A DNA stretch of 56,927 nucleotides from a virus, in IMG/VR virus record IMGVR_UViG_3300045988_096557. One strand, 5' to 3'. Below the pieces are notes generated by a model. The model ran no database searches. It was not told the origin of the DNA and saw only the letters and a list, made by a program, of their open reading frames with translations. The position numbers were made by a program, and so were the translations under genes. Below, piece after piece: positions 1 through 48,371 of the stretch (its first letter is position 1; every line of letters begins with the position of its first letter).

Positions 1-45
1 AACTACTACCCCTACAGCAGCGGGCTGGCGCCGGCTTTCGTCATT
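1..45 (+). repeat. DGR variable repeat (VR), 3' portion. The 5' part lies outside the window.
   Basis: Window 1-45 aligns to 717-760. Every mismatch sits opposite a TR adenine (A to C/T/G), and both repeats share a GC-rich 3' block GGGCTGGCGCCGG. Confidence 0.8.
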
Positions 46-51
46 GGATAA
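1..51 (+). CDS. 3' end of the DGR target gene (partial; start lies upstream of the window). The C-terminal codons carry the variable repeat and the gene ends at TAA 49-51.
   Basis: Reading frame N-Y-Y-P-Y-S-S-G-L-A-P-A-F-V-I-G-stop. It is homologous to the template repeat at 700-760, with mismatches only at TR adenines. Confidence 0.7.
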   Translation, partial: NYYPYSSGLAPAFVIG

Positions 52-132
52 TACAGCAAAATAACAATTCGGGACAGTTAAGGTTAAATTGTCCAATAAA
101 AAAATTATATATTCAAGTGAGGGAAATTTTAA

Positions 133-627
133 ATGTCTGTAAAAGTAAAGGATAGACACCTATCAAAACAAGACTGTCTTTATAAAGCCCGTGAATTGGT
201 TGGCTACATTTTAGTCTTAACTCGTCCCAGAGAATTTGATAAGGATGGAAAACAAATCTGCAAACCTGGACTGCTTGGAGAGGGTCAACCTCTTCAAGCG
301 TTCGGGTACGATATAATTAAATGCGGAAAGGGTATACACGCTTGCTGCTATGAGGCGTGTAAGATAAACTTAAAAGATAAAGAAACCCTTACAAAGAGAA
401 ATGAATATCACAATAAAGCGATTGAATATTGTGATAGTATATTTCGACAAATCGACCTATGTATTTATTAGTATGCTCAAAACAGCAAAAAGAAAAGAAG
501 ATCTTTTGAACATCTAGCTAGATTGACTAAGAAAGTAAAAGAATCAATCCAAGATAGAAAAAATAGAGATAAACTTATAGTCGAGCATAGATATTAGGCT
601 CCTAAAACTCATAGGAGAAGTCGATAA
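133..627 (+). CDS. Avd-like accessory variability determinant (small basic protein). The ORF is 133..471 if TAG terminates, or extends to TAA 625-627 if TAG is read through.
   Basis: It occupies the canonical target-avd-TR-RT position. It is a small basic ORF, and the extension past TAG 469 is strongly basic and ends at TAA. Confidence 0.45.
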
Positions 628-654
628 TATTTTTCTGCGGTTAAGTTCTGTATC

Positions 655-760
655 TTTCGGTCCCGTAACTACAACAACTCGAACAACGTTTGCAATGTCA
701 ACAACGATGGATCTGCGAACAACAACAACTACAACAACAGCAACGGGCTGGCGCCGGATT
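655..760 (+). repeat. DGR template repeat (TR). The 5' boundary is approximate.
   Basis: An AAC-rich tract (aac aac aac tac aac aac agc aac ggg ctg gcg ccg) that is near-identical to the VR except at adenines. The supplied ORF 690..947 is a spurious read across it. Confidence 0.8.
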
Positions 761-1066
761 AGATGGAGCTATCATGTTGCGAGTTAAGCTGCGGAGCAGC
801 GCAAACGAGCAACGCCTAAATAGTACCCCGAAGTATATTATTATCCATCTAATTAAGGTTTACTCTGGATTGCACTCACTACGTGGGGAAGAGATTGAGA
901 GACCATTAAAGAGCTTTGCTCTACAACTATCGAATAATATACTATAGGTAGATCTGCCTTTTCATCTAAGGAGAACTTAACCATTTCACTGAAAAAGTGG
1001 ATAAAGTAAGACTGTAGACGTGGAGCTCGAGTAGCTACCACTATAGCTACATGATAAGGAGAAAGT

Positions 1067-2284
1067 ATGTCTGAAATAAATCAAGATACTACTTTCGAGC
1101 GTTTTTGTAGTTTTGACGCTATGTATGATGCGTCTTATAAGGTATGTCGAAACGTTCGATGGAAAGATAGTACAATTAATTTTGAAGAGAATAGGATAGA
1201 AACAATTTTAAAAACAGAAGCTGATCTGCGAGCGTGTGAATACGAATAGCTTGTGTTTAGTTGTTTTTCGATAATCGAACGAGGCAAACCAAGAGATATA
1301 AGAGCGTGTCATATCAACGACAGACTGGTACAAAATGCGTTATGTGAACAAGTTTTATTACCAGAATTAACTCCTAGATTTATCTACGATAATTGTGCGA
1401 CTTTAAGAGGAAAAGGAATAGACTTTGCTTTAAAAAGAGTAAAGAAACACCTTCAACAAGCTCATAGGGAATATGGATTAGGAAAAGATTTTTATGGATT
1501 AAGAATTGATATTCAAAAATATTTTGATTCTATTGACCATAAATCTTTAAAGAAAGCAGCTAAACGTTTGATAAAAGATAAAAGAATTTATCAACTATGC
1601 TGTTATTTAATAGATACATTTTCTTTTAAGCTAACAAAAGATTCCTCTCCCATACCAGGAAAAGATTATTATATTGGTAAACGGCACAAATACACGAAAA
1701 TTAGTACCACTAATTTCAAGTCTGGCCGCAAATACTATGAATATGATAATAAAAGTCTTGGATTAGGAAGTCAAACATCACAATTATTCGCATTGCTAGC
1801 ATTGAACGAAATTGACCACTTCATCAAAGAAGAGTTACATATTAAGTATTATGGTCGTTATATGGATGATTTATATTTATTCCACAATGACAGTCAATAC
1901 TTAGCCGAATGTGAAAAGAGAATAGAAGTTCGCTTAAATAAGCAAGGATTAAAGATGAATAAGAAAAAGACTACTATTACTAGAATCTCTCCTATTCACG
2001 CGGACGGCAAACGTCACACTCCATTAAAATACTTAAAGTGGAACTTTTATCTCACAGACACTAATCATATAATACAAATTCCTTTTAAAAAGAAAGTGGC
2101 TCATTAGCGCAGAAAGTTAAAGAAAATGCAAGCGCTATGGCTAGAGGGTAAAATTTCAACAGATGAAATTTAGAAATCCTATCAAGGTTGGAGGGCACAT
2201 ATTTCTAAAGGAACTTGTTTTTATATAATTCAAGATATGGACAATTATTTTCGTTCATTATTTAAAGGAGTTGAAATAAAGTAA
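1067..2284 (+). CDS. DGR reverse transcriptase, about 405 aa, with three in-frame TAGs (1247, 2105, 2171).
   Basis: The N-terminal segment and the listed ORF 1253..2107 join in one frame across TAG 1247. Motifs recalled from Bordetella phage bRT (not compared computationally): the N-terminal region, KDRLVQNALC versus bRT KDRLVQHALC, and the YMDD box. The gene ends at TAA 2282-2284, overlapping the next ATG. Confidence 0.8.
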
Positions 2285-2946
2285 TGTATATTCTATTAAA
2301 TAGAGAGAATGTAGTAGTTGATATTCTTTCAGAAGCACGTTACATTAAACTGCAATCCTCAAATGGTATTGTCGTTGCCTGCGAGGAAGAAGAGGGAACT
2401 GGGGTTATCGGCTCAAATGGAGATACACATTATACTCTAATTAAAGCCGATGTATTAAATCAATCTAATGCTGTAAAAGTATTAGAGATAGAAACAATTC
2501 CATCAGATGTTACTCCTAATTATTCAATATATAATCAAGAAGATGGAACATTCACTTCTGATTTAGATTAGGAAAAGTATGACAAACAAGAGGAAAACAA
2601 GAAACTATTCGCAGAGTATCTTGCTACCCACCCACTAACTTGGGTTGATGGAAAAGAATATGGAATTACGTAGGAGGACCAGTCTGAGATTAGCTTAAAT
2701 CTCAATCAATATCAAGTCGCTCTCGCGGCCGAAGTAGAAAATCCTACGCTTGAGTGGCACGCTCGACACGAAGAATGTGTGCCATGGAGTTTAGAGCAAT
2801 TATCCGCTCTAAGTTTAGCTATTTCAAATGCGGTATATCCCAAATATCATTTAATGCAAGAATATAAAACTTAGATATTCGAAGCTGATTCAATAGATAA
2901 ATTAAAAGCTATTGAATTAAACTATGAAGATACCGACAGTGAGTAA
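2284..2946 (+). CDS. Hypothetical protein, 220 aa, with 3 in-frame TAGs (2569, 2671, 2872).
   Basis: ORF 2284..2571 continues in the same frame for 125 further codons with no TAA or TGA until TAA 2944-2946. A ribosome-binding site AAAGGAG precedes it. Confidence 0.5.
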
Positions 2947-3382
2947 AAATATAATTCTATTTGCAGTTGGAGGAACTCTATATTACGGTATAGAGTTCCT
3001 CTATAAAACTTTTATCAGCTTTGGAACTTGTCATTGGTCTATGTTCTTATTGGGCGGCTTATGCTTTTTATTAATAGGACTAATGAATGAGAACGTTCTT
3101 TGGGAAGAATCTATTCTTACTCAAGGAGTAAAAGGCTCTTTAATCATAACTGCTTTAGAATTAATCTTTGGTCTAGTATTAAATGTAAAACTAGGCTTAG
3201 GCATTTGGGATTATTCTCATGTTCCATTGAATTTTATGGGGTAGATTTGTTTACCATTCTCTATCGCCTGGTTCTTTTTAAGCCTTTTGGCAATAGTATT
3301 AGACGACTACCTAAGATGGAAATGGTTTGGAGAAGAAAAACCGCATTATCATTTATATAGTAAACCTCCTTGCGAGAAATAA
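2924..3382 (+). CDS. Small membrane protein with four predicted transmembrane helices, 152 aa, one in-frame TAG (3242). It may be a holin-like or CmpB/DUF1113-like protein.
   Basis: Four hydrophobic segments, and the same-frame continuation past TAG to TAA 3380-3382. Confidence 0.45.
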
Positions 3383-3383
3383 A

Positions 3384-3433
3384 AAAAAATGGGGAGAACC
3401 TTGAAATTAAGGTTCTCCCCATTTTTTTTTATT
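3384..3433. terminator. Bidirectional rho-independent terminator between convergent genes.
   Basis: A9-TGGGGAGAACCTT-loop-AAGGTTCTCCCCA-T9, a perfect 13-bp stem flanked by an A-run and a T-run. Confidence 0.75.
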
Positions 3434-4211
3434 TTACATCAATGATAATAATAGCAATATCATTTGTTGGTTTTTCTTTTGTATAAAAGGTAATTCCAAC
3501 CCCAACTGATGCATCAGCGTGATCAATTTTACTATACTCTTCAAGATTAGAAGTATAACTAATAATAGGTGGCACATTACCTGCTTTTCCGCAAGTTAAA
3601 GAAGTATTGGAATAAGTATATGTATACATATCTTCATTTAATACCCAACCTGATGCAGAAAGAGTTGCTGGATAAGCTGCCGTAGTACTTCCACTAATCT
3701 AGTTATCTGTTTCCAATTTGCTATACACATCTAAATTAGTTCTCGCCCCTGCTGCATTAATTGCCCCGGTTCCACCAACTGAAATTGGAAGCGTTCCAAA
3801 TTGCGGAGCGCCAGCTGTAGCGGCAAATAAAGCGCCAGTTCCTTGCAATCCTGTTACACCATTCTCGCTATTTCCGATAACAACCTAACCAGCCGCAATT
3901 TCAACCATCTTTACCGCATTAGTTCCATTACCAATTAATAAAGCATTTACAGTTAGACTATTATGTCCAGTTCCGCCCTGAGCTACAGTGGCAGTCATAT
4001 TTTTAAGAAAAATATCATCAATATCAATCTCAGTAATATCATTCTTTAGAACTTGAGCAGCATAGGCATTTACCTGCAAACGCCCACCTTCTTCATTACT
4101 AATATCAATAAAGAGATTTCCTTTATCTTCTGTGAAATAAGCGTATCCTTCATGAAGAGGTACACTATTCAAATTATCTTCTGGTCCTCGAAAAATCTTA
4201 AATAAAGCCAT
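3429..4211 (-). CDS. Tail fibre protein, about 260 aa, with 2 in-frame TAGs.
   Basis: ORFs 3885..4211 and 3429..3629 are in the same frame and are joined by a TAG-only stretch. N-terminus MALFKIFRG...GYAYFTEDKGNLFID, Gly-rich repeats such as GGTGAINAAGAR, and a ribosome-binding site AAGGAGGG. Confidence 0.65.
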
Positions 4212-8681: not shown

Positions 8682-11463
8682 AATACTATTCCACCTTCAT
8701 GCGCATTTGATTTGTTAAACATTTATAATTTATTACACAAAACTAAGCACTTTCTAAAGCTATATATTTAACCATATTATCTAATGGATTAAGAGTATAC
8801 CTTCCAGTTGGACCAATCTTTATAATAGACGGATTACTTCCATCTGGACTAGAACTAATTAAAAGGGTAGTTCCTTCATCCGCCTCAATATCAAGTAAAA
8901 CAATATCACTAAAAGTATAATAAATCTCGCCATCTGTCAACTATCCATCATCATTTAACTCGAAATGAGTATTATATATAAGCTCAACTTGTTTCTATGT
9001 TTCTTCTTTTATTATCTCATAAATATTAATGGTTTTATATAGATTAAAGGTTGTATTATCAACAATAGTATCTCCCTATTTATCCTTGACTAAAAACTTT
9101 TCCATATTTGGTGGAACATTACTAAATATACGATAAGTTTCACTGTTTCTATAATCGTAATTATAGAATTTTAAAACTCCATCTGTACCAGTAAAAATTC
9201 CAGAAATCTATCCCCAAATGCGAGAAGCATCAATAGCAGAAACGACTCCAACAGAAACGTCCTCAACCTAATTCAACTAGCAAACATAGTTTACAACAAT
9301 AGGAACGCTAGACGCGGACAAAGATAAAGAATTTACATTTTCATTTAAATGATAAACTCTATTTGGAGCAACTAAAATTCTTGAACCATTAACATTAATT
9401 TCGATAGCTGCGGATTCAGGGCCATCAAGAGCGAGAATCAAATCTTTACATTCCTAAATCTGTCTATCATATTCAGAAGTATCCTCGTCATCTCCCGCGG
9501 CTTCAGATTTAAGAGCTTCTAATTCTAGTAATCGTGCAGTCAAATCTATTTTTGGATATTGCTCAATCTAAATATCTGTAACTTGAATTAAATTAAGTTT
9601 ATATCCTCCGCCTATACTAACCTCTTCCTGCTCTCTTATCTTCGCATATAAATCTATATTTCTACCATAAATTCCACTTAACTATCCGAAAGAATTTATT
9701 CTATCTTCGCTAGCCAAACTTTCAAATTTACCAATATTTATTATATTAACTTCATTTAAATTTTCTATGGTATTCTCTAAAACTTCATACGCAGTAGCAG
9801 AAAAGGAGTAAATCATGCGGCCGACCGTATTATTCGGAGTCAAAGATACATTCAGCAAGCCTATAATTATATTTCCTTCGGTAGAAGATTTAAAGAGCTT
9901 ATAATTAAAATCATTTAAAAATTCTTCCACTTTTTCTCTAAATATTCTTTCAATAAAAATATTATCATTTGTTAAACTAGTTGAGATAGATAATTTATTT
10001 TCATCTGTAGAAACTTCAGAATAAGTTTCCTACTTCTCTTGACATTTTCCTCTGGTTACATTGTTTTTAATAAATTTGTCTTTGGGAATTACTAATTCAT
10101 TATTGTAATAAAGTCCATCATCTTTTAAAGAGAAAAATGTCTAATCTTCATCCATCTAAAAACTTATTAATCCAGAAATTGGAAACTCTGCATAATAAGC
10201 CTTACCATTCTAAACCAAATGAGGATATTTACTTCCTAAGGTATCTTGTTTACTTCTTAAAGTAGTATGTTTAAAGCTGGATAATGTCTAATTAAGAGAT
10301 AACTTTAACTATATATTATCCCTATAAATATAGCTATATTGGAAATCAACACTTCTACCTTGGTTACTTGTATCATATACCTAAGAAGTCCGCAACCCTG
10401 CTGAATTTTCCTATTGTATGGCATATTTATATCTTATACCACTTTCAATAGCAAAATCAACATGAATAACTGAATCATTTAATACTTGATTAGAAAATTT
10501 AAGATATTTTAAATCTTCCCATATCTAATAATTACTTTTTTCAGAACTTCTTGTTATTACATAACTACCACTAAGTCCATTTTTAGCGGTACAAAATATT
10601 TTTATACAACCATTTTCTCGACAATATACATCATTATCTTCAACTCTAATAGATACTCCCTCTAAATCTCCCAAATAGGTCCTATTAACTGAAAAATTAT
10701 AAGGCTCTGATTCTCCTTCATATTCATTAATAGTAATAATAGAGTAGACTACTGTATAGCTTTTATTATTGGTTAACACGGTTTTAAATCTATAAGTATC
10801 GGTATTATTAATAGAACCATTGTGCTATAACCATCCAGATGTTTCAAGTAAATAATTAGGATCTTTAGAGGCTCCTTCATACAAATCAAATTTATATCTA
10901 TCCAATAATTCATTACTAGCAGAGCTAATATTAAAGCTTCCTATAAACAAAGGAGTAAGAGTTGCCTCTATTCTTTCAGTAGATATAACATCTTCTCGTT
11001 TAGCTTCATCGTTTTCTATTTTAATAATTGGTGTATCTATAGCCTTGATTATCATTACAGTAGACCATTCAGAAAAGGCTCCCGCATCTATCTGCTATTG
11101 TTTCCAAGTGGCAAATTCTGATAACGAAGTATACATTGGATTTATACCAAAACGCATTTGTACTTTGTATAAATAGCCTGGCTACCAAGATTCGGCTAAT
11201 TCGCTTCTATTAATTGATACAAAATATTGATTTCCTAAAGACCCTATCGCAGAAGGAGCTTTATAAATAGTTCCATCTGGATATTGGTCTGTATTTACAA
11301 TACTTTTATTATTAGACTAACGAACTAGCCGCACTTGTACATGACCTATGTCATTAAAAGACGTAATTGGCTATAGCGTAAAATTTATCTAATATACGTT
11401 CACGCTAGAAAGAAATGCTGGCTATGTACTCTACAAAGTAGGCGGATAAATACTAATTGGCAT
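8674..11463 (-). CDS. Large distal-tail (Dit-position) protein with FN3-like modules, about 929 aa, with about 30 TAGs.
   Basis: ORFs 8743..8940, 9682..9930, 10525..10779 and 10825..11055 are all in frame 1. Hand translation runs uninterrupted from ATG (ribosome-binding site AAAGGAGG) to TGA 8674-8676. Confidence 0.45.
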
Positions 11464-25493: not shown

Positions 25494-26033
25494 TTAATCT
25501 TTTCCAACCACATCTTTAATTACTGATAAAGTTTCAAGATTCTCACCATTTTTAATTTTTTCCATTATATCAGTAATATATGTATCTAATCCAGAAGCAT
25601 TTTTATTCATCATTTGGATAATGCCTGCGGCAGAGTTATTATATCTTGCTATATCGCTTAAAGTATCTCTAACTAAGTCTTCAATAAAAGACAATTCATC
25701 TACTGGAATAGCACTTCTAACTGCATCAATAACACCATTAGTCTCTAGTGTATCATAAGTTTTGGCAATATTTTCATGCACATCTTCTTGCTCAAAAACA
25801 ATTCCACCATACCATCTGCAAATAGCAATAGCAAAATAAGTTTCTACTCTTACCGGACTAAAACACCCAGTCATCTCATCTATCGCTAAATCTGCGACAA
25901 AAGTAATAAGATTTGTTTTATCTGCAATCGGAAGATAATTAACCACAGATAAAATCTTATCTTCTCCAATTTTTACTTCTGTATATTTAATTTTAGGCTC
26001 CAAACCCAAATCTTTAAAAGTAATTTCACTCAT
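25494..26033 (-). CDS. Tail assembly chaperone-like protein, 179 aa (no TAG; TAA stop).
   Basis: Intact ORF immediately upstream of the TMP, with its own promoter and a ribosome-binding site AAAGGAG. Confidence 0.45.
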   Translation of the reverse strand: MSEITFKDLGLEPKIKYTEVKIGEDKILSVVNYLPIADKTNLITFVADLAIDEMTGCFSPVRVETYFAIAICRWYGGIVFEQEDVHENIAKTYDTLETNGVIDAVRSAIPVDELSFIEDLVRDTLSDIARYNNSAAGIIQMMNKNASGLDTYITDIMEKIKNGENLETLSVIKDVVGKD

Positions 26034-27600: not shown

Positions 27601-28992
27601 TTAAATGGTGTCATCGCTAACAGAGACTAGCTTATTGCGCATTTTTGCGCCAGAATAAGTGCTTGTGCTTTCTGCAAAACTGAGCTTGTTATTAATAGTA
27701 TAACTCTTCTCAAAGTCTCCGTTAATCTTAGTAATCTTAGCTGTAATAGGAGTTGTATTACTCTCCTTAGTAAGAATTACTAATAGGCCATCTGCCAATT
27801 CTGCGCCATCTACGGTTTGAGTCTTTGTATTGCCCTCAATACGGTCATCAGTAGAGAAGTATTTCTCATATGCTGGGTTAGTTGTTACTACAGTATACTT
27901 GGTACTATCGCTCTCTACTGGAATTTGGAGGCTAATTTGTGCGGCTTCTGGAATTGTATCTCCATAAGCCTCAGTATCATAAGCCTTTCCTGTTACAGTA
28001 CCAGTTACATCAAGTTCCGCCTCTGTGGCACTGTTAGAAACAAAATTTACAGTTACATCAGCGGCTTCACTCTCATAAGTACCAACATTCTCAGAGCATG
28101 GCTCACGAGAACCTTCGGTTTCTCCAGTTTCATCAGTAATTACCTGAATAGCGGCAAGAACTTTATGAGTTTGATCAAACTTAGTGTAGTCTGGGAAAGC
28201 GTCCATTGTAAATGTAAAGGTAGATGGATCACCGTTAGCAGCCATGCTGAATGTGAAGTTACTCTGAACCTTACAGTTAGGAATAATAAATTCAGCAGGC
28301 ATATCTACGCCATCGCTCTCACGGCGGAATAGAGTAGAAGCTTCAAGATAATAGTTTCCACCAAGCTTATCAGCGGTAATCTCAATCATCTGGGCGCCAC
28401 CAGTGCGCTTTACATAATAGTCAACTAAAACGATAGTACCAGATGGGAGCACTCCCGCATGAGAATAACAAGTTAAAGTTGATTTTCCGTCCTCTGTATA
28501 AGAAACAGAAACAGGAATGCATGGTTCAGCATTAACTTGACCATCATCTCCTAATACCATTACAAAAATGTCAGCAGAACGATGATACATTTCATTTTCA
28601 TGATCTGCAAATCCATTCCAGCAGGCTTTATCAGGAATTACGATAGTGTTAGCTGTTTCAACTTCTACCTGAGAAGTTTGATGAACGTAAATTGGAGCTT
28701 CTTTTGTTGCATCAAGCAGACCTGCACCAGAAAGAATAGAGAAGCTCTCTGGAGAAAGTAAAGCATCTTCCATTGTAAATGTTAGAGTACGCTCACCTTC
28801 CCAAGCAATCAATCTAGTATATCCACGTCCGCCCTGTGCGTATACAGTTGTTGCAGCACCTTCAAGAGTAGAGGTTCTTAAAGTGTCAAAGTACAAAACT
28901 GGTTCATTTTTATAGAACTTACGATTACCTAAAGTCTGATAGCTTTTGGCACGAAGTACTACATCGCAAATCTCACGAATACCAAAACGCAT
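27601..28992 (-). CDS. Major tail protein with a C-terminal Ig-like domain, 463 aa (no TAG).
   Basis: N-terminal block FDTLRTSTLEGAATTVYAQGGRGYTRLIAWEGERTLTFTMEDALLSPESFSILSGAG is characteristic of siphophage major tail proteins. Ribosome-binding site AAGGAGG. Confidence 0.65.
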   Translation of the reverse strand: MRFGIREICDVVLRAKSYQTLGNRKFYKNEPVLYFDTLRTSTLEGAATTVYAQGGRGYTRLIAWEGERTLTFTMEDALLSPESFSILSGAGLLDATKEAPIYVHQTSQVEVETANTIVIPDKACWNGFADHENEMYHRSADIFVMVLGDDGQVNAEPCIPVSVSYTEDGKSTLTCYSHAGVLPSGTIVLVDYYVKRTGGAQMIEITADKLGGNYYLEASTLFRRESDGVDMPAEFIIPNCKVQSNFTFSMAANGDPSTFTFTMDAFPDYTKFDQTHKVLAAIQVITDETGETEGSREPCSENVGTYESEAADVTVNFVSNSATEAELDVTGTVTGKAYDTEAYGDTIPEAAQISLQIPVESDSTKYTVVTTNPAYEKYFSTDDRIEGNTKTQTVDGAELADGLLVILTKESNTTPITAKITKINGDFEKSYTINNKLSFAESTSTYSGAKMRNKLVSVSDDTI

Positions 28993-32142: not shown

Positions 32143-32676
32143 TCAATCAGAAATAGCTACTCTGCGTTTTGGAGTATCCTCACTTGTAGTTGACACTCTT
32201 CTTACAGGTTTCTCTTCCTTAGGATTCTTTTTATCATCTGCTGTTAATTCTAATGCTTTAGTAACATTAAATCCTAATTGTTTTTCCAAAGCATCTCTTT
32301 TAGACATATCATTTAAAGGAAGAGAAATAGCATGGGATTTAATCAGATCTTTAGTGCCTTCTGGAGCAAAATCAAGAGCATCCTTAAATTCATCTAAAGA
32401 ACACGTATTCATCCAAGAATCAATCTCTTCTTCTTTCATCCAATACTCTGGTTCAACCCTACCATTAATAAGATATTCAACAATCTCTCTATCATCTACA
32501 AGTAAGTAATTATAAATTAATTTGCGGCCTCCAGGCGTTTGTACTAGCTTTTCTAGTTCAGATACTTCAAGTTCCTTGTGTTCTCCAGGATAAAACATAC
32601 GGCGCACGCCCAATTCAGGCAATCTATATACAACACGACCTGCGCTCTTGTTATAAACAGTGCAACTATTTTTCAT
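32143..32676 (-). CDS. Hypothetical protein, 177 aa (no TAG).
   Basis: Intact ORF downstream of the capsid gene. Confidence 0.5.
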   Translation of the reverse strand: MKNSCTVYNKSAGRVVYRLPELGVRRMFYPGEHKELEVSELEKLVQTPGGRKLIYNYLLVDDREIVEYLINGRVEPEYWMKEEEIDSWMNTCSLDEFKDALDFAPEGTKDLIKSHAISLPLNDMSKRDALEKQLGFNVTKALELTADDKKNPKEEKPVRRVSTTSEDTPKRRVAISD

Positions 32677-32740: not shown

Positions 32741-33793
32741 TTAACCATTATTTGGATTTGGGTTAGTATTATCAAGCTCGCCTTGAAGTTCAGTATCAAC
32801 ATAAGAGAAGATGTTATTCGCCATCATTACACCGACACCAACCTTACGGTAAACCTGAATATCACGAGACCAGTCGTCATTATCATCGCGTTCGCGCACG
32901 TGGGTAGTACCCTCAAAAGCAACTTTTACAGGACGGCTCTCAGCTCCACCAGGAATAATCCAAGCATAACCTGGATCGATCATCTTTTTGGAGTTAGTCT
33001 CATCCTCAAGAGTTTGGGGTAGAATTACCACTCTAGTTCCCTTGTAATTTGCAAGATAACCAGTTCCCCAATACTGATCTCTCATGTTGTCAGAAATCCA
33101 AGCATCATTATCTGGAATCATTTTTACTGCAAACTCACGAGTGCAATAAATAGTTGGCTGACCATAAGCAGTAGCAGTATTTACAAGATAATCCATAGTT
33201 GGTTCGTCAAAACCAGCAACAGCACAACGGTTTGCTGCGGGAAGCTGATTGATAGAACCCATAAGAGCTTGAGCAATCTCTCTATAAATAAGCTCTTGCA
33301 TACCCTCTGTTACAATTTGAGTAAGTTCTGCAAAGTTTACTCTTCCATCAAGGAACTCCTCAAATCCGATACGAGCAGCTCCACCAATGGCGCTTGTTCC
33401 AACTTCGAAGCTCTCAGAACCAAGCTTAAAGGTCTCATACACACCAGCAAGCCCCACACGAGTAATGAATTGCTTAGCGCGAGTAAGTCCAGTTCTACGA
33501 GTAAATACAGGCTTGTCGCCTTGTGCGAAAGTTCTAATCTCAGCAAAATTGCCATAAGAATTGAGTAAACGATTAGGAACAACTTCGTCCATAGTCTGCT
33601 CAATTAAAGAGAATAGAGTATTTTTATTTTCTCTATAAAGTTCATCTGTGCCAACAAATTCATTTAGCTCATTACGCAAAGTAGTATTTAAAGCGTCATA
33701 GCTAAAAGACTCTCCTTGATAGCTATAGGTACCAGAAGGATTTGCATTAGCGACAGTTTTCATTAAACTAAGTAAATTAGCTTTATCTAACAT
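32741..33793 (-). CDS. Major capsid protein, 350 aa (no TAG).
   Basis: Intact ORF in the capsid position after the scaffold/decoration genes. Composition and length fit a major capsid protein. Confidence 0.55.
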   Translation of the reverse strand: MLDKANLLSLMKTVANANPSGTYSYQGESFSYDALNTTLRNELNEFVGTDELYRENKNTLFSLIEQTMDEVVPNRLLNSYGNFAEIRTFAQGDKPVFTRRTGLTRAKQFITRVGLAGVYETFKLGSESFEVGTSAIGGAARIGFEEFLDGRVNFAELTQIVTEGMQELIYREIAQALMGSINQLPAANRCAVAGFDEPTMDYLVNTATAYGQPTIYCTREFAVKMIPDNDAWISDNMRDQYWGTGYLANYKGTRVVILPQTLEDETNSKKMIDPGYAWIIPGGAESRPVKVAFEGTTHVRERDDNDDWSRDIQVYRKVGVGVMMANNIFSYVDTELQGELDNTNPNPNNG

Positions 33794-33812: not shown

Positions 33813-34502
33813 TTAACCTACACGCTGTACTTTTACACCAGGTTGAAGATCTGGCATAGTATACACTTTTACTACTGCAAAGATAGGATCTAAATCTCCA
33901 CCTTTAGCAGAAGTTTCAGTATCTTTAGTTAAATATCCATCAGTATCAATCTTTAGACGATCGCCTACTGCAAGCTCTCCGGCATTAGCCTTAATGGTAT
34001 TAGTAGTCCAAATATCACCAATACTAATCTTAATTACGCGAGGTACCATTTTAGTTCCTTCTGGCATCAATGCAGGATAAGTAAATGTCTCCATATTTTT
34101 CTTATATGCTACATCACTACCTTCGCGTACAGCTTCTCCGGTATAATCACTTATTGTAGCAAGTGTAGAAACTGTTTGTCCAATTGGACTATATACACGA
34201 GCATTATAATTATCCTTAATCATAGCAAAATCAGCATCAGTTTCGCGATCTCTATAAATCTTTACTTCATTAAATACCATCATCCAGGCGCCAGAAGTAG
34301 CTTCCGTACTAAAATCGCATACGCCTTTTGCATAATCATACTTTACAAATTGACCGTTCTCAAGAATCTCAATAGCGCTAGCTGCGGGAAGCTGAGCATA
34401 TACTTGACCATTTCTTGGAGCGGAAAGATGGTTTGGCTCCACTTGACCATATCCATACTGGACAAAAGTGGCATTACCTAATCTTTTAGAACTCTTAGCC
34501 AT
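33813..34502 (-). CDS. Capsid-associated protein (decoration or scaffold-like), 229 aa (no TAG).
   Basis: Intact ORF between the protease/scaffold-like gene and the major capsid protein. Confidence 0.4.
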   Translation of the reverse strand: MAKSSKRLGNATFVQYGYGQVEPNHLSAPRNGQVYAQLPAASAIEILENGQFVKYDYAKGVCDFSTEATSGAWMMVFNEVKIYRDRETDADFAMIKDNYNARVYSPIGQTVSTLATISDYTGEAVREGSDVAYKKNMETFTYPALMPEGTKMVPRVIKISIGDIWTTNTIKANAGELAVGDRLKIDTDGYLTKDTETSAKGGDLDPIFAVVKVYTMPDLQPGVKVQRVG

Positions 34503-42223: not shown

Positions 42224-42995
42224 TATAAAAGAATATTTTCAACAATAGGTAAACAAATTGCGGGAGATTAGTGGTAATGTTCCATCACTCATGATTATCG
42301 ACGCAACAGCCTAGGATCCCGCAAATCAAATTTATATTCGTAATAAAATAAAAGACTTTAATGCTCTTGGTTGGGAAGCAGAAGTGTTTAGAGCGAATAG
42401 TTCAGTAGAGTTAAGATTACTCTTAGGCCATGCGAAAGACTGGGATGCGGTAATAGTTCAAATGCCAGTAGCAAATGGAATTGATTTCAATTATAGTCAA
42501 ATACCTATCTCTAAAGATGCGGATGGTTTAAATCCTATGAGCAATATTACTCCAGCAACAGTAAGAGGAATTATAGACTATTTGGATGAATGTGGTTTTA
42601 ACTACGAAGGTAAATCTGCTGTTATTTTGGGAAGAAGCGATATTGTAGGAAAGCCAATGGCTAAAGCTCTACTGGATAGAAATATGACCGTATCAGTATG
42701 TCATAGCAAAACAGATATAAATACAAAACTCTATTTAACAAGGCAAGCAGATTTAATTGTCTCTGCGGTAGGAAAATTTAGCTTAACAAGAGAAGCCTGT
42801 CCTAACGCTATTGTTATAGATGTTGGTATTCGCAGAAATGAAGCAGGAATTATTCTTGGAGACTTTGTAGAAATTGATGAAATTGCAAAAAGAAATAATG
42901 TATGGTCAACTCCTGTCCCCGGAGGAGTAGGTCTATTAACAAGATTGGGGTTGATGAAAAATTGTTTATAGTTAGCGAAACAGGCGCAAAGATAA
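42210..42995 (+). CDS. folD: Bifunctional methylenetetrahydrofolate dehydrogenase/cyclohydrolase FolD, about 261 aa, with 4 in-frame TAGs.
   Basis: Motifs recalled from canonical FolD (not checked by computation): PANQIYIRNK (catalytic Lys region), GRSDIVGKPMAKALL, AIVIDVGIRR, TPVPGGVGLLT. The listed ORF 42384..42971 continues upstream across TAGs and downstream across TAG 42969 to TAA 42993. Ribosome-binding site GGAGG. Confidence 0.7.
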
Positions 42996-43348
42996 TGAAA
43001 TTTTCGGGAGATTTTGACAAATATGCTGAAGAAGTTCTTCATATTAACAATCCCTTTCGAAAATTTTATCATACACAAAGTCCTTCAGTATTTAAAACTA
43101 ACACCGATGGTATCATAACAATAGATATGGAAGAATCTCGAAAAATATATGAAGAAACAAAAGTAAATAGAGAAGAATGGATTAAATTAAGAGATAGATA
43201 TGTCGCAGAAAGAATACTGCGGGAACTTGGATATGAAGTTCTATTAACCTCGTCTTATTTTGAATACTATCCTGATGCTATTCCTTGTGAAGGAGCGTCA
43301 GGGCAATGCACAATAGACTGTAGAATGAATGGGTGTAAATATGAGTAA
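42995..43348 (+). CDS. Hypothetical Cys-rich protein, 117 aa.
   Basis: An ATG at 42995 overlaps the FolD stop (TAATG) and is in frame with the listed ORF 42902..43348. Confidence 0.5.
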   Translation: MKFSGDFDKYAEEVLHINNPFRKFYHTQSPSVFKTNTDGIITIDMEESRKIYEETKVNREEWIKLRDRYVAERILRELGYEVLLTSSYFEYYPDAIPCEGASGQCTIDCRMNGCKYE

Positions 43349-43349
43349 A

Positions 43350-43511
43350 ATGTGTCCTTGCATTGATTATTGTTATAATAGATTCGGTCGGTAGTACACA
43401 CCAGACTGCGACAATACTTGCGATTATGCAATTAAAGTTAAAGAAAATAAAATGCTTAAAGAATATTTAAAGAGATTAGCGGCGGAAACAAATAGTTTAC
43501 ACACTTTATTT
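43350..43511 (+). CDS. Small Cys-rich protein, 53 aa, with 1 TAG.
   Basis: The ATG lies 2 nt after the previous stop. It contains the Cys-rich segment CPCIDYCY and ends at TGA. Confidence 0.3.
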
Positions 43512-43572
43512 GAAGATTGGGATAATTAAATTATCCACTTCTGCCCAACCGCACGGAAGAAAGGAAACTGCA

Positions 43573-44340
43573 ATGAAACGAGAAGAGCTCAAACAACACG
43601 CGCAATCGCATTACGCAGACATTAAAGTGAGACTCAGGGAAGATACAGATCGCGCAATTATAAACTCTGAAATTTTTGGCCCCAATCTTCCTTTTCCGCA
43701 AAAACCGCGAGAAACCCACCATAATACCTTTTATCTTAAAGACCAAGATAGTGTATCCTGCCTATTCGGTTTAACCGATCGGAGCAAGACTGCGATCTTA
43801 AATTATGCAAGCTATAAACATCCAGGTGGTTATTTCCTTGGAGGTAGCTCTGCACAAGAAGAGGCATTGTGTCACGAAAGCAACCTTTATCCTATTCTTC
43901 TTGCTTTTGATGATACTTATTACGCATGGAATAGACAGAGACTGAATCGAGCCCTATATCTTGATAGAGCTATCTATACTCCTGATGTAGTCTTTGAAAA
44001 AGACGATAGTAGAAAATTAGCTGATGTAATTACTTGTGCTTCTCCTAATTATAGAACAGCACATACTTATCAGCAAGTTCCTCTTTCTCTAAACAATAGG
44101 ATAATGGAAGAGAGAATTAATTTTATGTATCGAATTGCCGAGGTTAAGGGAGTGGAAAATTTAATCGCGGGAGCCTGGGGCTGTGGTGTTTTTATGCAAG
44201 ATCCATCAACGGTCGCCACCTTGCTCGTAAACGCAGCCCGCAATTATAATATTCCAAATATCTATTTTGCGATTCCAAACCGCAATTCCCGCAATTTTAG
44301 AATTTTCTTGGAGGTTTTGGAAAAATGTTCAAGCAATTAA
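43573..44340 (+). CDS. Macro domain protein of the bacterial PARG-like / DUF2263 type, 255 aa.
   Basis: Signature HPGGYFLGGSSAQEE (the GGG-x6-8-QEE PARG motif) and a LIAGAWGCGVF block. Ribosome-binding site AGAAAGGAA, with an ATG at 43573 in frame with the listed ORF. Confidence 0.65.
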   Translation: MKREELKQHAQSHYADIKVRLREDTDRAIINSEIFGPNLPFPQKPRETHHNTFYLKDQDSVSCLFGLTDRSKTAILNYASYKHPGGYFLGGSSAQEEALCHESNLYPILLAFDDTYYAWNRQRLNRALYLDRAIYTPDVVFEKDDSRKLADVITCASPNYRTAHTYQQVPLSLNNRIMEERINFMYRIAEVKGVENLIAGAWGCGVFMQDPSTVATLLVNAARNYNIPNIYFAIPNRNSRNFRIFLEVLEKCSSN

Positions 44341-44762
44341 TTATTGCGAGGCGAGACTTAAATATGTCTCCAGGGAAACTTGCCGCACAAGTTTCCCATG
44401 CTTCTATTGCTTTTCTTTTGGAAAAGTTATATTGGGGAAGTAAAGAAGTTGTTAAAGAAAGAGACGGTCTTATGTATCATATAGGAATAAGCCTCGATAG
44501 AGACTTATTCCATAATTGGATAGCGGAAGCGGAGACCAAAGTAGTTTGTAGAGCGAAGAATAAGAATGATTTGTTAAAGGCTGTTAAGATAGCAGAAGAA
44601 TTAGGATGGGAAGAGAATAAGGATTATTGGCTTATCTATGATGCTTGTAGAACAGAGTTAGAACGCGAAGGCCCGGAAGGGACTTTGACGTGTATTGGAT
44701 TTAGGCCAATGGAGGCGGAAGAAATTGACAAAATTGGGAAGAAGTATCAGCTTTATAATTAA
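44325..44762 (+). CDS. pth2: Peptidyl-tRNA hydrolase, PTH2 family, 145 aa.
   Basis: Motifs RRDLNMSPGKLAAQVSHASIAF and a C-terminal CIGFRP...IDKIGKKYQLY match the PTH2/Bit1 signature. It overlaps the macro domain gene by 16 nt. Confidence 0.7.
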   Translation: MFKQLIIARRDLNMSPGKLAAQVSHASIAFLLEKLYWGSKEVVKERDGLMYHIGISLDRDLFHNWIAEAETKVVCRAKNKNDLLKAVKIAEELGWEENKDYWLIYDACRTELEREGPEGTLTCIGFRPMEAEEIDKIGKKYQLYN

Positions 44763-44967
44763 TATAGTTTTGATTTTACTATTGTTGACTGCTTGCGTGG
44801 AGGAGAACAATCGCTATCCAAGGCTAGAGTATATTCCTACAATGTGGAGATCTGATGCGATTAATATTAAACTAGAGGATGGATATATCTTAAAAGGATA
44901 TGAAACGATAGAAACTGAGGATGGATATAATTTGATTTTTAGTTTTGAGGCAACCGACGATGGATAA
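44695..44967 (+). CDS. Putative lipoprotein (lipobox LLTAC). The start is uncertain and it overlaps the pth2 3' end.
   Basis: A hydrophobic signal peptide followed by Cys. Confidence 0.35.
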   Translation: MDLGQWRRKKLTKLGRSISFIINIVLILLLLTACVEENNRYPRLEYIPTMWRSDAINIKLEDGYILKGYETIETEDGYNLIFSFEATDDG

Positions 44968-45103
44968 AGTATTAGTATGGTTTGACGGCAAGCATTATTA
45001 TAATATATGCGCAGTCTGTGGAGAATTATATCCAATTTACAAAGTAGAAGATCATATTATATATAATTTAAAAAAGAAGTGTAAATGCGGAGAGAAGAAG
45101 TGA
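44957..45103 (+). CDS. Small zinc-ribbon protein (CxxC...CxC), 48 aa.
   Basis: ATGGATAAAG overlaps the previous stop. It has two Cys pairs and ends at TGA 45101-45103. Confidence 0.3.
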   Translation, partial: TMDKVLVWFDGKHYYNICAVCGELYPIYKVEDHIIYNLKKKCKCGEKK

Positions 45104-45125
45104 GTTCTTCTCTCTTTTCGTTATT
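45091..45125 (+). terminator. Rho-independent terminator candidate.
   Basis: AGAGAAGAA...TTCTTCTCT stem followed by a T-rich tract. Confidence 0.4.
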
Positions 45126-45389
45126 GAGATTGAAAAGTCGATTTAGATTTTGAAATGGCGTGGCAGAACGATTTTACAAAAAAATTTCCAGTTTTTCCCA
45201 AAATACACGCCCCTCTTTCACATGGTAAAGTATTGAAGTGTAGTTGGCCTCTTTCACTCGTTAAAGTACGAAAGCAAGAAAGCACGCCCCCCTAAAGGAA
45301 TACGCGCGCGTAAAGGATTTGTGCAAACTGCACAACAAGATGTTATTTATTTTGTGCAAAAGAGAGAGAAAGAAATTTCAAAAAAACTA

Positions 45390-45418
45390 TTGACAAGTGA
45401 GCATTTTGGTGGTAAACT
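45390..45418 (+). promoter_or_regulatory. Sigma-70-like promoter with an upstream A-tract (TTGACA-17-TGGTAAACT).
   Basis: TTGACA 45390-45395, spacer 45396-45412, TAAACT 45413-45418 preceded by TGG. The upstream tract AAATTTCAAAAAA is UP-element-like. Confidence 0.5.
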
Positions 45419-45486
45419 GGACTTGTCCAGTAGGACAGAGACAAAAGCACGGCACTTTGAAAATTAAAAAAATTTCAAAAAAGGTA

Positions 45487-45515
45487 TTGACAAACTGCTA
45501 AAGGTTTGATACAAT
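45487..45515 (+). promoter_or_regulatory. Consensus sigma-70 promoter with an upstream A-tract (TTGACA-17-TACAAT).
   Basis: TTGACA 45487-45492, spacer 45493-45509, TACAAT 45510-45515. The A-tract element matches that of the previous promoter. Confidence 0.55.
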
Positions 45516-45568
45516 ACAGACAGAACAAAAGAGAACCACACCACAAAAAGAAAGGGAGTCAAAAGAGT

Positions 45569-45943
45569 ATGAAAAAGATTGATTTTACCAATGAAGATCG
45601 AGCCATTATTATGGAGTATATGGCCGCTAAGATGGCTAAGTCTGCGGCGGAGGCGGCGGAGAAAGCAGCTAAGGCTAAGGCTAAAGAGCTATTCTCCAGA
45701 TTAGGTAAGGCTTTTAAGGCTACGGACAAAACAAGTTATCTATATGGCACGGTACAAATGCAGGGTAAGGCGAAAGCGGTGGTATATAAAGAAACTACCG
45801 CAAAAGGAACGGTTGACTGGAAAGCCTATGCTATGGCATTAGGCGGGACAGAGGCCGAAGCAGAGCAATTCCGCAGACCTTCCGATGTTCGTACCTCTTT
45901 TGATTGGGCGACAAAGACCCAAGAAGAAGAAATTAGAGGATAA
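45569..45943 (+). CDS. Hypothetical early protein, 124 aa (possibly Gp157-like).
   Basis: Ribosome-binding site AAAGGGAG, with an ATG at 45569 in frame with the listed ORF 45506..45943. Confidence 0.5.
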   Translation: MKKIDFTNEDRAIIMEYMAAKMAKSAAEAAEKAAKAKAKELFSRLGKAFKATDKTSYLYGTVQMQGKAKAVVYKETTAKGTVDWKAYAMALGGTEAEAEQFRRPSDVRTSFDWATKTQEEEIRG

Positions 45944-45954
45944 CAGTTTATAAA

Positions 45955-45995
45955 CCCTGCCTTGCAAAACACAAGGCAAGGCAGGGTTATAATAA
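45955..45995 (+). terminator. Rho-independent terminator.
   Basis: CCCTGCCTTGC...GCAAGGCAGGG, an 11-bp stem, followed by TTATAATAATT. Confidence 0.5.
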
Positions 45996-46017
45996 TTAAA
46001 AGAAAGGGGCATACTAT

Positions 46018-46164
46018 ATGTATCAGTTACAAGTTTTAGCCAATGAGAAAATGCGCTATTATGAACCATCCACCCTTTCAATGGCAAGATGGAAGGTCAG
46101 TCACGAGATAGTCAATCCTAATCATTGGATTGTGGATTTATCCAGTGGAGAAATCGTAGATTAA
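46018..46164 (+). CDS. Small hypothetical protein, 48 aa.
   Basis: Ribosome-binding site AAAGAAAGGGG plus ATG, ending at TAA 46162-46164. Confidence 0.35.
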   Translation: MYQLQVLANEKMRYYEPSTLSMARWKVSHEIVNPNHWIVDLSSGEIVD

Positions 46165-46210
46165 AAAGAAGCTGACCTAACGGCTATACGGGGAGAAAGG
46201 ATAAAAGACT

Positions 46211-46513
46211 ATGAACAATTATATTAAGTGGTTCGTTGGGCCTACTTTTAGAAAGCGTGAATTTATTAAACTTTTGCGGTATAAGATGAATGTGCGTTCC
46301 GCAGAGGTAGAGGACGGCATCATCTTAGACCTGGATGCTTTTAATGCCATGCGAGTGGCCTATATGCCACACTGGGCTTATATCAATAGAAAGTTTATCA
46401 ATAGCAATCTGCATACCAGAATTGCAAGCGAAGACGAATATAAGGTTGCTATGGTCGGAGATACAATCGGTACTGAATGGGTTAAAGAACAGGAGGCAAA
46501 GAAATGGAAATGA
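46211..46513 (+). CDS. Hypothetical protein, 100 aa.
   Basis: Listed ORF with a ribosome-binding site GGAGAAAGG. Confidence 0.55.
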   Translation: MNNYIKWFVGPTFRKREFIKLLRYKMNVRSAEVEDGIILDLDAFNAMRVAYMPHWAYINRKFINSNLHTRIASEDEYKVAMVGDTIGTEWVKEQEAKKWK

Positions 46514-46656
46514 GAATTATTAAGCGGATAGGAGGCGGCATTTGTGCCGCTCTCCTACTCTGGGCAGTTCTTAGTTGGGCTGATATAGTGGCGGATAACT
46601 GTGAGCCAAACCCACAGCACAGCGAATATAATATGTTCGTTCTCATGACTAAATAA
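46504..46656 (+). CDS. Small membrane peptide, 50 aa.
   Basis: Overlapping ATG with a hydrophobic core GGGICAALLLWAVLSW. Confidence 0.35.
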   Translation: MEMRIIKRIGGGICAALLLWAVLSWADIVADNCEPNPQHSEYNMFVLMTK

Positions 46657-46669
46657 TAGGAGGAAAAAA

Positions 46670-46903
46670 ATGTATAGAGGGACTTATATCGACGCCATGG
46701 GCCGCAAGCGCAGAGAGATGGGATATTTCAGTCTTAATAAGCCCACTCTGAATAAACTCCATATACCAGTAATTGTCCAAGCGAGAGATAAGACAAGTGC
46801 GGCGAATAAAATCAATAGGAAATATAAGTTGCGTATAAGTCCCAGCAATCTACGGGAGGTGCCGATGGGCACAGGCTATCTCATGGAAACCATGGAGCTG
46901 TAA
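46670..46903 (+). CDS. Hypothetical protein, 77 aa.
   Basis: Listed ORF with a ribosome-binding site AGGAGG. Confidence 0.55.
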   Translation: MYRGTYIDAMGRKRREMGYFSLNKPTLNKLHIPVIVQARDKTSAANKINRKYKLRISPSNLREVPMGTGYLMETMEL

Positions 46904-46914
46904 AGGAATAAAAA

Positions 46915-46953
46915 TGACTGGCAATCTGCACAAAGATTGCCAGTCATTTTTAT
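46915..46953 (+). terminator. Rho-independent terminator.
   Basis: TGACTGGCAATC...GATTGCCAGTCA stem followed by TTTTTAT. Confidence 0.6.
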
Positions 46954-46975
46954 GCACTTTTCCATATTGACTTTT

Positions 46976-47116: not shown

Positions 47117-47170
47117 ATACTTGTCCAGAGGGACAAGGTCACAAAAAGAATTTGAAAGGAAGTAAAAGAA

Positions 47171-47410: not shown

Positions 47411-47473
47411 GAAAACCTGCGGGAGTGGAGGTTTATGGCCTCCACTCCCCACGATAAAAAAGGAGAAATAAAT

Positions 47474-48329: not shown

Positions 48330-48371
48330 CTTCTCAAAAGAAAGGGAGTTGTTGGTATGCAGAAATTAATG

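What the first reader, a model, noticed from the sequence alone, without database searches (positions are those of the whole stretch)
1067..2284. The DGR reverse transcriptase itself contains in-frame TAGs, so diversification is gated by the recoded translation state
The RT reading frame runs through TAG codons at 1247, 2105 and 2171.
- The first falls inside the conserved N-terminal region, where bRT has ...NYERGPYREF... and this protein has ...EYE-TAG-LVFSCF....
- Under the standard code the RT would be split into a 60-aa fragment and an N-terminally truncated protein of about 284 aa.

Full-length RT, and hence mutagenic homing, would therefore be made only when TAG is suppressed. This is presumably late in infection, the same window in which the target structural genes are expressed. 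A DGR whose activity is conditional on stop-codon suppression is unusual.
Basis: inference. Interest (0 to 1): 0.6.

Follow-up and report, generated by a model that had tools for sequence, protein, structure and literature searches.

The report
Amber-recoded DGR reverse transcriptase in phage
The three in-frame TAGs in this phage's diversity-generating reverse transcriptase are real. They are ordinary glutamine codons of a phage that reads TAG as Gln through its own suppressor tRNA, a state shared with most of its non-early genes and already reported for other recoded phages.

Summary
Observation confirmed. ORF 1067-2284 (+) is a 405-codon DGR-type reverse transcriptase with in-frame TAG at 1247, 2105 and 2171 and no TAA or TGA.

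The DGR is real and recently active:
- The TR lies at 658-760. The 3' end of the VR lies at 1-37 and is cut by the window edge.
- In 99%-identical sibling genomes, every TR/VR mismatch sits at a TR adenine, and the VRs differ between strains.

TAG means Gln here:
- In 34 related RTs the same columns alternate between TAG, CAG and CAA.
- All three segments of the ORF evolve under purifying selection.
- A standard-code relative has an uninterrupted RT.
- Same-species genomes carry a tRNA(CUA).

So full-length RT does depend on amber suppression. The rest does not:
- TAG sites are not conserved. Counts per RT run from 0 to 8 and track how recoded each genome is.
- Replication genes such as Pol III alpha also carry TAG, so the switch is "post-early" rather than "late".
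- Recoded DGR RTs are already published (Lou et al. 2023; zeta crAss-like phages 2025).

Verdict: a new member of a known kind. No evidence supports a DGR-specific gate.

The parts
1..51 (+). 3' end of the DGR target gene, cut by the window start. The VR tail is 1-37 and the stop codon TAA is 49-51. The GC-rich end GGGCTGGCGCCGG is shared with the TR.
   Evidence: (repeat D4): 1-37 versus 724-760 has 6 mismatches, all at adenines of the 724-760 copy. In sibling loci the full 103-nt VR has 14/14 and 16/16 mismatches at TR adenines. In L002 the target is a 598-aa ORF (585 aa from its RBS-supported TTG start) with 8 TAG, Big_3 Ig-like domains and a C-terminal DUF6273.
133..627 (+). Accessory ORF in the Avd position, between VR and TR. 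It is 164 aa and basic, with in-frame TAG at 469-471 and 595-597.
   Evidence: In relatives codon 113 is printed as an ordinary Gln (L006-8) or Lys (L026/27) and the ORF continues to 152-164 aa. No sequence match to Avd in Pfam, PHROGs or PDB, so the Avd label rests on position only.
658..760 (+). Template repeat (TR), 103 nt and AAC-rich.
   Evidence: It is identical in L001/L002, while their VRs differ from it only at adenines.
1067..2284 (+). DGR reverse transcriptase, 405 codons under code 15. It carries the LGSQTSQ (GxxxSQ) motif at aa 233-239 and YMDD at aa 265-268.
1247..1249 (+). In-frame TAG, codon 61 (Gln). It lies in a short helix just before the finger strands.
   Evidence: this column is TAG in 18, CAG in 13 and CAA in 3 of 34 RTs. 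Q is invariant in 117 database homologs. Model.
2105..2107 (+). In-frame TAG, codon 347 (Gln), in C-terminal (thumb) helix 340-359.
   Evidence: TAG 27, CAG 4, CAA 3. Q or E is also found here in most distant standard-code DGR RTs. Model.
2171..2173 (+). In-frame TAG, codon 369 (Gln), in C-terminal helix 365-379.
   Evidence: TAG 7, CAG 20, CAA 5, ATG 2. Model.
2284..3382 (+). Two co-oriented downstream ORFs that also carry TAG: 2284-2946 (220 aa, 3 TAG, weak DUF4376 match) and 2924-3382 (152 aa membrane protein, 1 TAG).
3382..3429 (.). Perfect 20-bp hairpin flanked by A and T runs. It looks like a bidirectional terminator between the DGR operon and the converging tail-gene block.
   Evidence: (I1).

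Best explanation
This is a genuine, recently active diversity-generating retroelement in a roughly 146-kb gut siphovirus. The phage is distantly related to phAss-1 ('Caudoviricetes code 15 clade') and decodes TAG as glutamine.

The three TAGs in the RT are synonymous Gln codons. They arose by C-to-T change of CAG as part of a genome-wide CAG-to-TAG replacement outside the early gene block. They are read by a phage-encoded tRNA(CUA) that sits in a large tRNA array about 29 kb beyond the right end of the window.

Full-length, active RT therefore cannot be made until that suppressor is working. The same holds for the Avd-position protein and for the main target protein. This dependence is a shared property of nearly all non-early genes of the phage, replication enzymes included. 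It is not a control device specific to the DGR.

Shown: the ORF, the TAGs, the TR/VR adenine pattern, the TAG/CAG/CAA alternation, purifying selection, and the tRNA(CUA) in same-species genomes.

Inferred: Gln charging of the suppressor, the timing of the switch, and the neutrality of the individual TAG sites.
For: RT identity and integrity:
- RVT_1 match.
- Best PDB sequence hit is bRT, aligned contiguously across codon 61.
- The AF2 model (pLDDT 82.5) has DGR RT 8ubd/8ub7 as its top fold hits over about 400 columns.

TAG = Gln:
- The codon-level alignment of 34 RTs shows TAG alternating with CAG and CAA at all three sites and at 16 further columns.
- Q or E at aa 347 is kept in most distant standard-code DGR RTs.
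- dN/dS is 0.04-0.17 in nearly all comparisons of segments 1-60, 62-346 and 348-405.
- Invariant residues continue after both C-terminal TAGs.

DGR activity:
- L001, L002 and L005 have an identical or one-nucleotide-different TR.
- Their VRs differ from the TR at 16, 14 and 23 positions. All but one of these (a G/C difference shared with L005's own TR) lie at TR adenines.

Suppressor:
- A tRNA(CUA) is present in four genomes of this lineage, including contig 084596, which is 99% identical to the window over 11 kb.
- Its acceptor stem GCGGA/TCCGC and discriminator G73 match the phage's own tRNA-Gln(UUG).

Not DGR-specific:
- Codon counts (TAG/CAG/CAA) are 0/36/31 in early genes, 288/60/236 in the late block and 3/0/15 in the RT.
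- The standard-code relative L028 has an RT with 0 TAG. The weakly recoded L006-8 have 1. The others have 5-8.
- Replication genes carry TAG.

Precedent: recoded DGR RTs are described in 10.1101/2023.08.07.552389 and PMC12386605.
Against: - There are no expression or proteomic data, so a quantitative regulatory effect of the TAGs on RT level cannot be excluded.
- In this lineage the RT uses TAG for only 17% of Gln codons, against 40-50% in its neighbours (binomial p about 0.008-0.05). The RT is therefore not a perfectly average late-type gene.
- The suppressor tRNA was found in 99%-identical sibling genomes, not in the window itself.
- Its aminoacylation identity and its expression timing are inferred.
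Confidence: 0.8

Rival explanations
1. Selected gate. The TAGs in the RT are kept by selection so that mutagenic retrohoming is switched on only once the suppressor is active, coupling diversification to the late phase.
For: Full-length RT does require suppression. The Avd-position gene and the main target gene also carry TAG. TAG347 is the commonest state of its column, at 27 of 34. The early block is completely TAG-free, so some temporal separation must exist.
Against: No TAG site is conserved across lineages, and aa 61 flips between TAG and CAG among close relatives. One active-looking relative with standard code has no TAG, and another lineage has a single TAG at a different site. This RT has fewer TAGs than its neighbours. 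Replication genes need suppression too, so the gate would open well before 'late'. The second DGR target is TAG-free.
Confidence: 0.12
2. The TAGs are true stops. The RT is a decaying pseudogene, or is made as separate fragments of 60 aa and 284 aa.
For: Under code 11 the ORF is split exactly this way, and a GTG lies 3 nt after the first TAG.
Against: All three segments are under purifying selection. VRs diverge between strains that share an identical TR. The fragments would lack the N-terminal region homologous to bRT and the thumb helices. No Shine-Dalgarno sequence precedes 1253. More than 100 full-length homologs were retrieved.
Confidence: 0.03
3. The host itself reads TAG as an amino acid, so there is no conditional state at all.
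For: Nothing direct. The host is unknown.
Against: Early genes use 0 TAG among 67 Gln codons, and one early ORF (53844-54164) ends in TAG just before a terminator hairpin. The phage carries its own tRNA(CUA). Published work finds that hosts of recoded phages use the standard code (Borges et al. preprint).
Confidence: 0.05

Closest known systems
Bordetella phage BPP-1 DGR (bRT, bAvd, TR, VR in mtd)
   Same: Order of parts: target gene with a 3' VR, a small accessory ORF, the TR, then the RT. TR-to-VR differences are adenine-specific. The GxxxSQ and YMDD motifs are present. The RT fold and N-terminal region match 8ub7/8ubd.
   Different: The RT is 405 aa versus 328 aa, with an insertion at about aa 185-230. 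The accessory protein has no detectable similarity to bAvd. The RT, accessory gene and target contain TAG sense codons. A second, remote VR exists.
DGRs of TAG-recoded crAss-like gut phages (Lou et al. 2023 'recoded persisters'; zeta crAss-like phages, PMC12386605)
   Same: The DGR RT has several in-frame TAGs and lies next to a recoded tail-protein target. VRs change over time or between strains. The genome encodes a tRNA(CUA).
   Different: The phage lineage differs. This one is a tape-measure (sipho-type) phage of about 146 kb related to phAss-1, not Crassvirales. RT identity to the phage records searched is at most 35%.
phAss-1 group / 'Caudoviricetes code 15 clade' (PMC10607447)
   Same: Major capsid protein 52% identical. 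A tape-measure gene of about 3000 aa. TAG appears in TerL, portal and tail genes. A large tRNA array includes tRNA-Sup(CTA).
   Different: The phAss-1 paper mentions no DGR or RT. The suppressor tRNA sequences are not close.
Stop-codon recoding as a regulator of late and lysis genes (Borges et al., 10.1101/2021.08.26.457843)
   Same: The early block follows the standard code. Structural genes are heavy in the recoded stop. The phage encodes its own suppressor.
   Different: Here the replication genes also carry TAG. The most abundant virion proteins, the capsid protein and a 463-aa virion structural protein, carry none.

Membership tests
Diversity-generating retroelement (DGR) | Reverse transcriptase of the DGR clade with the [LIV]GxxxSQ motif and YxDD | tested here: met
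   LGSQTSQ at aa 233-239 and YMDD at aa 265-268. RVT_1 match. Best PDB sequence and fold hits are the Bordetella DGR RT.
Diversity-generating retroelement (DGR) | TR/VR repeat pair whose differences fall at adenines of the TR | tested here: met
   In the window, 6 of 6 mismatches in the 37 nt of VR present fall at TR adenines. In 99%-identical siblings the counts are 14/14 and 16/16 over 103 nt. A second VR shows 18/19 and 17/18.
Diversity-generating retroelement (DGR) | VR at the 3' end of a target gene that encodes a ligand-binding (C-type-lectin-like) domain | tested here: inconclusive
   The VR occupies the last ~115 nt (about 38 codons) of a 585-aa protein with Big_3 domains and a C-terminal DUF6273. 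The fold of the VR domain was not modelled.
Diversity-generating retroelement (DGR) | Accessory protein (Avd or HRDC type) next to the TR | tested here: inconclusive
   A basic 164-aa ORF sits in the Avd position and is conserved in relatives. It has no match in Pfam, PHROGs or PDB. No structure prediction was run.
Diversity-generating retroelement (DGR) | Ongoing mutagenic retrohoming | tested here: met
   Strains with an identical TR have different VRs at the adenine positions. The window and sibling contig 091188 start within a few nt of each other inside the VR, and contig 084596 breaks within the cassette ~1 kb downstream, as expected if population heterogeneity breaks the assembly there (inference). 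No time series or experiment.
TAG-to-Gln (code 15) recoded phage | Genes are intact only if TAG is sense, and TAG aligns with Gln codons of homologs | tested here: met
TAG-to-Gln (code 15) recoded phage | Phage-encoded amber suppressor tRNA | tested here: met
   None in the window. It is present in four same-lineage genomes, is confirmed by the Rfam tRNA model at 59.8 bits, and has a Gln-like acceptor stem.
TAG-to-Gln (code 15) recoded phage | Early genes are compatible with the standard code | tested here: met
   No in-frame TAG in 18 early-block ORFs (2448 codons), which have sigma-70-type promoters and GC-rich terminators.
   Sites are polymorphic and lineage-specific. Counts of 0-8 follow genome-wide recoding. 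This RT sits below its neighbours.

The most novel reading that the evidence does not exclude
The amber codons in the RT, the Avd-position gene and the main target act together as a dosage and timing filter. DGR activity would then scale with suppressor-tRNA abundance. Mutagenic cDNA synthesis would be blocked in cells where the phage genome is present but the code switch has not occurred, such as early infection, abortive infection or a carrier state. Selection would keep at least one TAG in the cassette in recoded lineages.
Probability: 0.1. Interest if true: 0.55.

Novelty: new member of a known kind. Interest (0 to 1): 0.25.

Why it matters
The practical point concerns annotation. Under code 11 this active DGR is invisible or looks broken, so DGR surveys of gut viromes that use the standard code will under-count recoded phages. 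This RT family has more than 1000 database homologs, many of them from contigs of about 145 kb.

Biologically, the locus shows that a DGR works normally inside a code-15 genome. It also gives a clean series of relatives, with RT TAG counts of 0, 1, 3 and 5-8, for studying how CAG-to-TAG replacement spreads through a gene.

It does not provide evidence for a new regulatory principle.

Tried and rejected
- Megablast of the first 12 kb against GenBank phages found nothing. The closest named phage was found only at protein level (phAss-1, capsid protein 52% identical).
- The Avd-position ORF gave no hit in Pfam, PHROGs or PDB, so it is not called Avd.
- tRNA scans were empty for the window, for 20 RT-centred loci, and for three walks to the left that covered contig 084596 from 110.5 to 146.3 kb. 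The first walk to the right was also empty. The suppressor turned up only on the third rightward step.
- A broad anticodon-loop pattern search of the viral collection was considered and dropped, because it would be swamped by chance and unrelated hits.
- The promoter scan of 1-3600 found fewer sigma-70-like sites than shuffled sequence (9 versus 14.6), so the timing of DGR transcription could not be inferred.
- The correlation of RT TAG share with neighbour TAG share across loci was uninformative because the sequences are clustered (Spearman 0.01). The per-locus binomial tests were used instead.
- An Rfam scan around the suppressor found only tRNAs and no ribozyme.
- The pseudogene and internal-start readings were rejected on dN/dS and on VR diversity.

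Full report
THE OBSERVATION

Window 1067-2284 (+) translates as a single 405-codon frame. It has TAG at codons 61, 347 and 369 (nt 1247, 2105, 2171), no TAA or TGA, and ends in TAA. Given the base composition, the chance that 405 codons lack TAA and TGA is about 8e-10. The protein matches Pfam RVT_1 (4.6e-17). It carries the DGR-type LGSQTSQ motif and YMDD.

THE WINDOW IS TAG-RECODED

With TAG as sense the longest ORF rises from 464 to 2913 aa. A minus-strand block at 3429-41788 becomes a contiguous head-and-tail module with TerL-like, portal and capsid genes, a 2908-aa ORF whose size and position match the ~3,150-aa tape-measure gene of phAss-1, and tail fibres.

Gln-type codon counts (TAG/CAG/CAA) differ by region:
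- Late block: 288/60/236.
- A set of 18 small ORFs at 42.9-56.2 kb: 0/36/31. This region has repeated TTGACA-N17-TATAAT promoters and GC-rich terminators.
- The RT: 3/0/15.

TAG has therefore largely taken the place of CAG outside the early block.

IT IS A REAL AND RECENTLY ACTIVE DGR

A 103-nt AAC-rich template repeat lies at 658-760. Window 1-37 is the end of the variable repeat, cut by the window edge, and all 6 mismatches fall at TR adenines.

In viral contigs whose RT is 99% identical, the full cassette reads as follows:
- a 598-aa ORF (585 aa from its RBS-supported start) with Big_3 and DUF6273 domains, 8 TAG, and the VR within its last ~115 nt;
- a 164-aa basic ORF;
- the TR;
- the RT.

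L001 and L002 share an identical TR, but their VRs differ from it at 16 and 14 positions, all adenines, and differ from each other. L005 shows 23 differences, 22 at TR adenines; the other is a G/C difference also present in L005's own TR. The window and sibling contig 091188 begin within a few nucleotides of each other inside the VR, and contig 084596 breaks within the cassette about 1 kb downstream. I read that as assembly breaks caused by population heterogeneity (inference).

TAG IS READ AS GLUTAMINE AND THE WHOLE ORF IS ONE PROTEIN

A search of the large protein collection gave 1089 homologs. Many are full length at 398-410 aa, with Q at position 61 in 117 of 117. I fetched 70 viral loci and aligned the 34 RTs of at least 65% identity (window included) codon by codon:

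| Codon | TAG | CAG | CAA | Other |
|---|---|---|---|---|
| aa 61 | 18 | 13 | 3 | 0 |
| aa 347 | 27 | 4 | 3 | 0 |
| aa 369 | 7 | 20 | 5 | 2 (ATG) |

Sixteen other columns also carry TAG in some relative, including the two Q of GSQTSQ. Q or E at aa 347 is kept in most DGR RTs of only 31-36% identity from standard-code phages.

dN/dS between the window and five lineages is 0.04-0.17 in nearly all comparisons for segments 1-60, 62-346 and 348-405. The outliers are the nearly unsubstituted N-terminus versus L005 and the N-terminus versus L028 (0.36). Invariant residues continue to the C-terminus.

The PDB sequence hit to Bordetella bRT runs uninterrupted from aa 11 to 162, across codon 61. An AlphaFold model (pLDDT 82.5) finds the DGR RT structures 8ubd and 8ub7 as best folds over about 400 columns. 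TAG347 and TAG369 lie in the C-terminal thumb helices. No Shine-Dalgarno sequence precedes the GTG at 1253. The 60-aa piece is thus not a separate protein, and a truncated RT is not a credible product.

THE SWITCH EXISTS BUT LIES OUTSIDE THE WINDOW

The window has no tRNA. I walked along contig IMGVR_UViG_3300045988_084596 (146,360 bp), which is 99% identical to the window over 11 kb. This found an array of about 30 tRNAs at 65-85 kb containing a tRNA with anticodon CUA. The same tRNA is present in three further genomes of the lineage, and it scores 59.8 bits on the Rfam tRNA model. Its acceptor stem (GCGGA/TCCGC) and discriminator G73 match the phage's own tRNA-Gln(UUG). That fits Gln charging, but this is an inference. 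The closest named phage, phAss-1 (capsid protein 52% identical), likewise has tRNA-Sup(CTA).

The dependency is real: without amber suppression no full-length RT can be made. Four results argue against a DGR-specific or 'late' gate.

1. No TAG site is conserved across lineages. Codon 61 flips between TAG and CAG among RTs of one close lineage.
2. The number of TAGs per RT follows the degree of recoding of each genome:
   - 0 in the standard-code relative L028 (code-11 ORF coverage 0.91);
   - 1 in the weakly recoded L006-8;
   - 5-8 elsewhere.
   In most lineages the RT's TAG share of Gln codons equals that of its neighbours. In the window's lineage it is lower, at 17% versus 40-50%.
3. Replication genes of the same phage also contain TAG:
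   - Pol III alpha at aa 742 of 1293;
   - a DnaB-like helicase, 2;
   - a RecJ-like protein, 13;
   - a RuvC-like protein, 9.
   Suppression must therefore operate before or during DNA replication. Only the early block is TAG-free.
4. The phenomenon is already in the literature.
   - Lou et al. [quoted passage not shown] - The Borges et al. preprint, which proposed recoding as a regulator of late genes, does not mention DGRs.

MECHANISM I CONSIDER MOST LIKELY (confidence about 0.8)

1. Early genes are translated with the host's standard code.
2. The phage tRNA(CUA) accumulates and TAG is then read as Gln.
3. From then on the replication, DGR, structural and lysis genes can be translated.
4. 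The RT, with the accessory protein and TR RNA, makes adenine-mutagenised cDNA that replaces the VR in replicating genomes before packaging.

The TAGs in the RT are synonymous substitutions that drift in and out. They make the RT suppressor-dependent as a side effect. I cannot exclude an effect on RT dosage, and there are no expression data.

NOVELTY AND SCORE

The DGR itself, the code-15 recoding and their combination are all known kinds. This lineage, a phAss-1-related siphovirus of about 146 kb with a two-target DGR, does not appear in the phage records I searched: RT identity is at most 35% and there was no nucleotide match. It is a new member of a known kind. Interest 0.25.

Noticed in passing
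L161 7105-7707 (-) and L162; window-equivalent about 57.66-58.26 kb, just beyond the window's right end: There is a second, remote DGR target: a 200-aa TAG-free protein ending '...YDGSATYNFYYTGIGLAPAFILD...'. It holds an 83-nt VR2 that differs from the TR at 19 and 18 positions, of which 18 and 17 are TR adenines. VR2 differs between the two genomes. One TR therefore serves two VRs about 57 kb apart.
   Followed up: partly
L168 19759-19834; also L169 18517-18592, L170 17398-17472, L171 18859-18933 (contig 084596 at about 84.66 kb): An amber suppressor tRNA(CUA) sits inside an array of about 30 tRNAs at 65-85 kb of the same-species genome. Its acceptor stem and discriminator resemble the phage's own tRNA-Gln(UUG).
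   Followed up: yes
L164 18745-19060; L169 7792-8107; L171 7487-7802: A phage-encoded tmRNA (tag peptide DNDYFENYLAA) lies inside the tRNA array of some genomes of this lineage. It is absent from contig 084596. A trans-translation RNA in a phage that suppresses a stop codon is curious.
   Followed up: no
window 32741-33793, 27601-28992, 33813-34502, 25494-26033, 32143-32676 (all -): Five genes inside the heavily recoded late block have no TAG at all. They include the capsid protein homolog (52% to phAss-1) and a 463-aa virion structural protein. Their neighbours use TAG for 45-100% of Gln codons. This looks like avoidance of TAG in the most highly expressed proteins.
   Followed up: partly
window 42900-55000: The early-type block has 40.8% G+C against 33-35% elsewhere. 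It has five or more near-consensus TTGACA-N17-TATAAT promoters and four copies of a 61-nt GC-rich terminator-like repeat (46977, 50065, 50951, 54205). It has no in-frame TAG and is mosaic relative to sibling genomes (96-97% identity with gaps and a 74% segment).
   Followed up: partly
window 53844-54164 (+): An early-block ORF ends in TAG 40 nt before a terminator-like repeat. Read-through would add 45 aa across the hairpin. This suggests TAG still works as a stop for early genes.
   Followed up: no
L075 389-4270 (Pol III alpha), L080 5890-7641 (RecJ-like), L075 9968-10447 (RuvC-like): Replication and recombination genes of the same phage also contain TAG: 1, 13 and 9 respectively. The code switch is therefore needed before the late phase.
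   Followed up: partly
window 1; L003 and L004 contig starts: The window and contig 091188 start within a few nucleotides of each other inside the VR. Contig 084596 breaks within the cassette ~1 kb downstream. This is probably an assembly break caused by VR heterogeneity in the population.
   Followed up: partly
L009 about 8845-8947 (VR): The VR of one relative contains an in-frame TAG codon (…ACT TAG GGT…). It needs non-adenine changes relative to that relative's own TR. This is a recoded stop inside a hypervariable region.
   Followed up: no
L168 10664-10783: Rfam finds a tRNA match spanning 120 nt that ARAGORN did not report in this genome. It may be an intron-containing or otherwise interrupted tRNA. 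Sibling genomes have tRNA-Leu(UAA) at the corresponding place.
   Followed up: no
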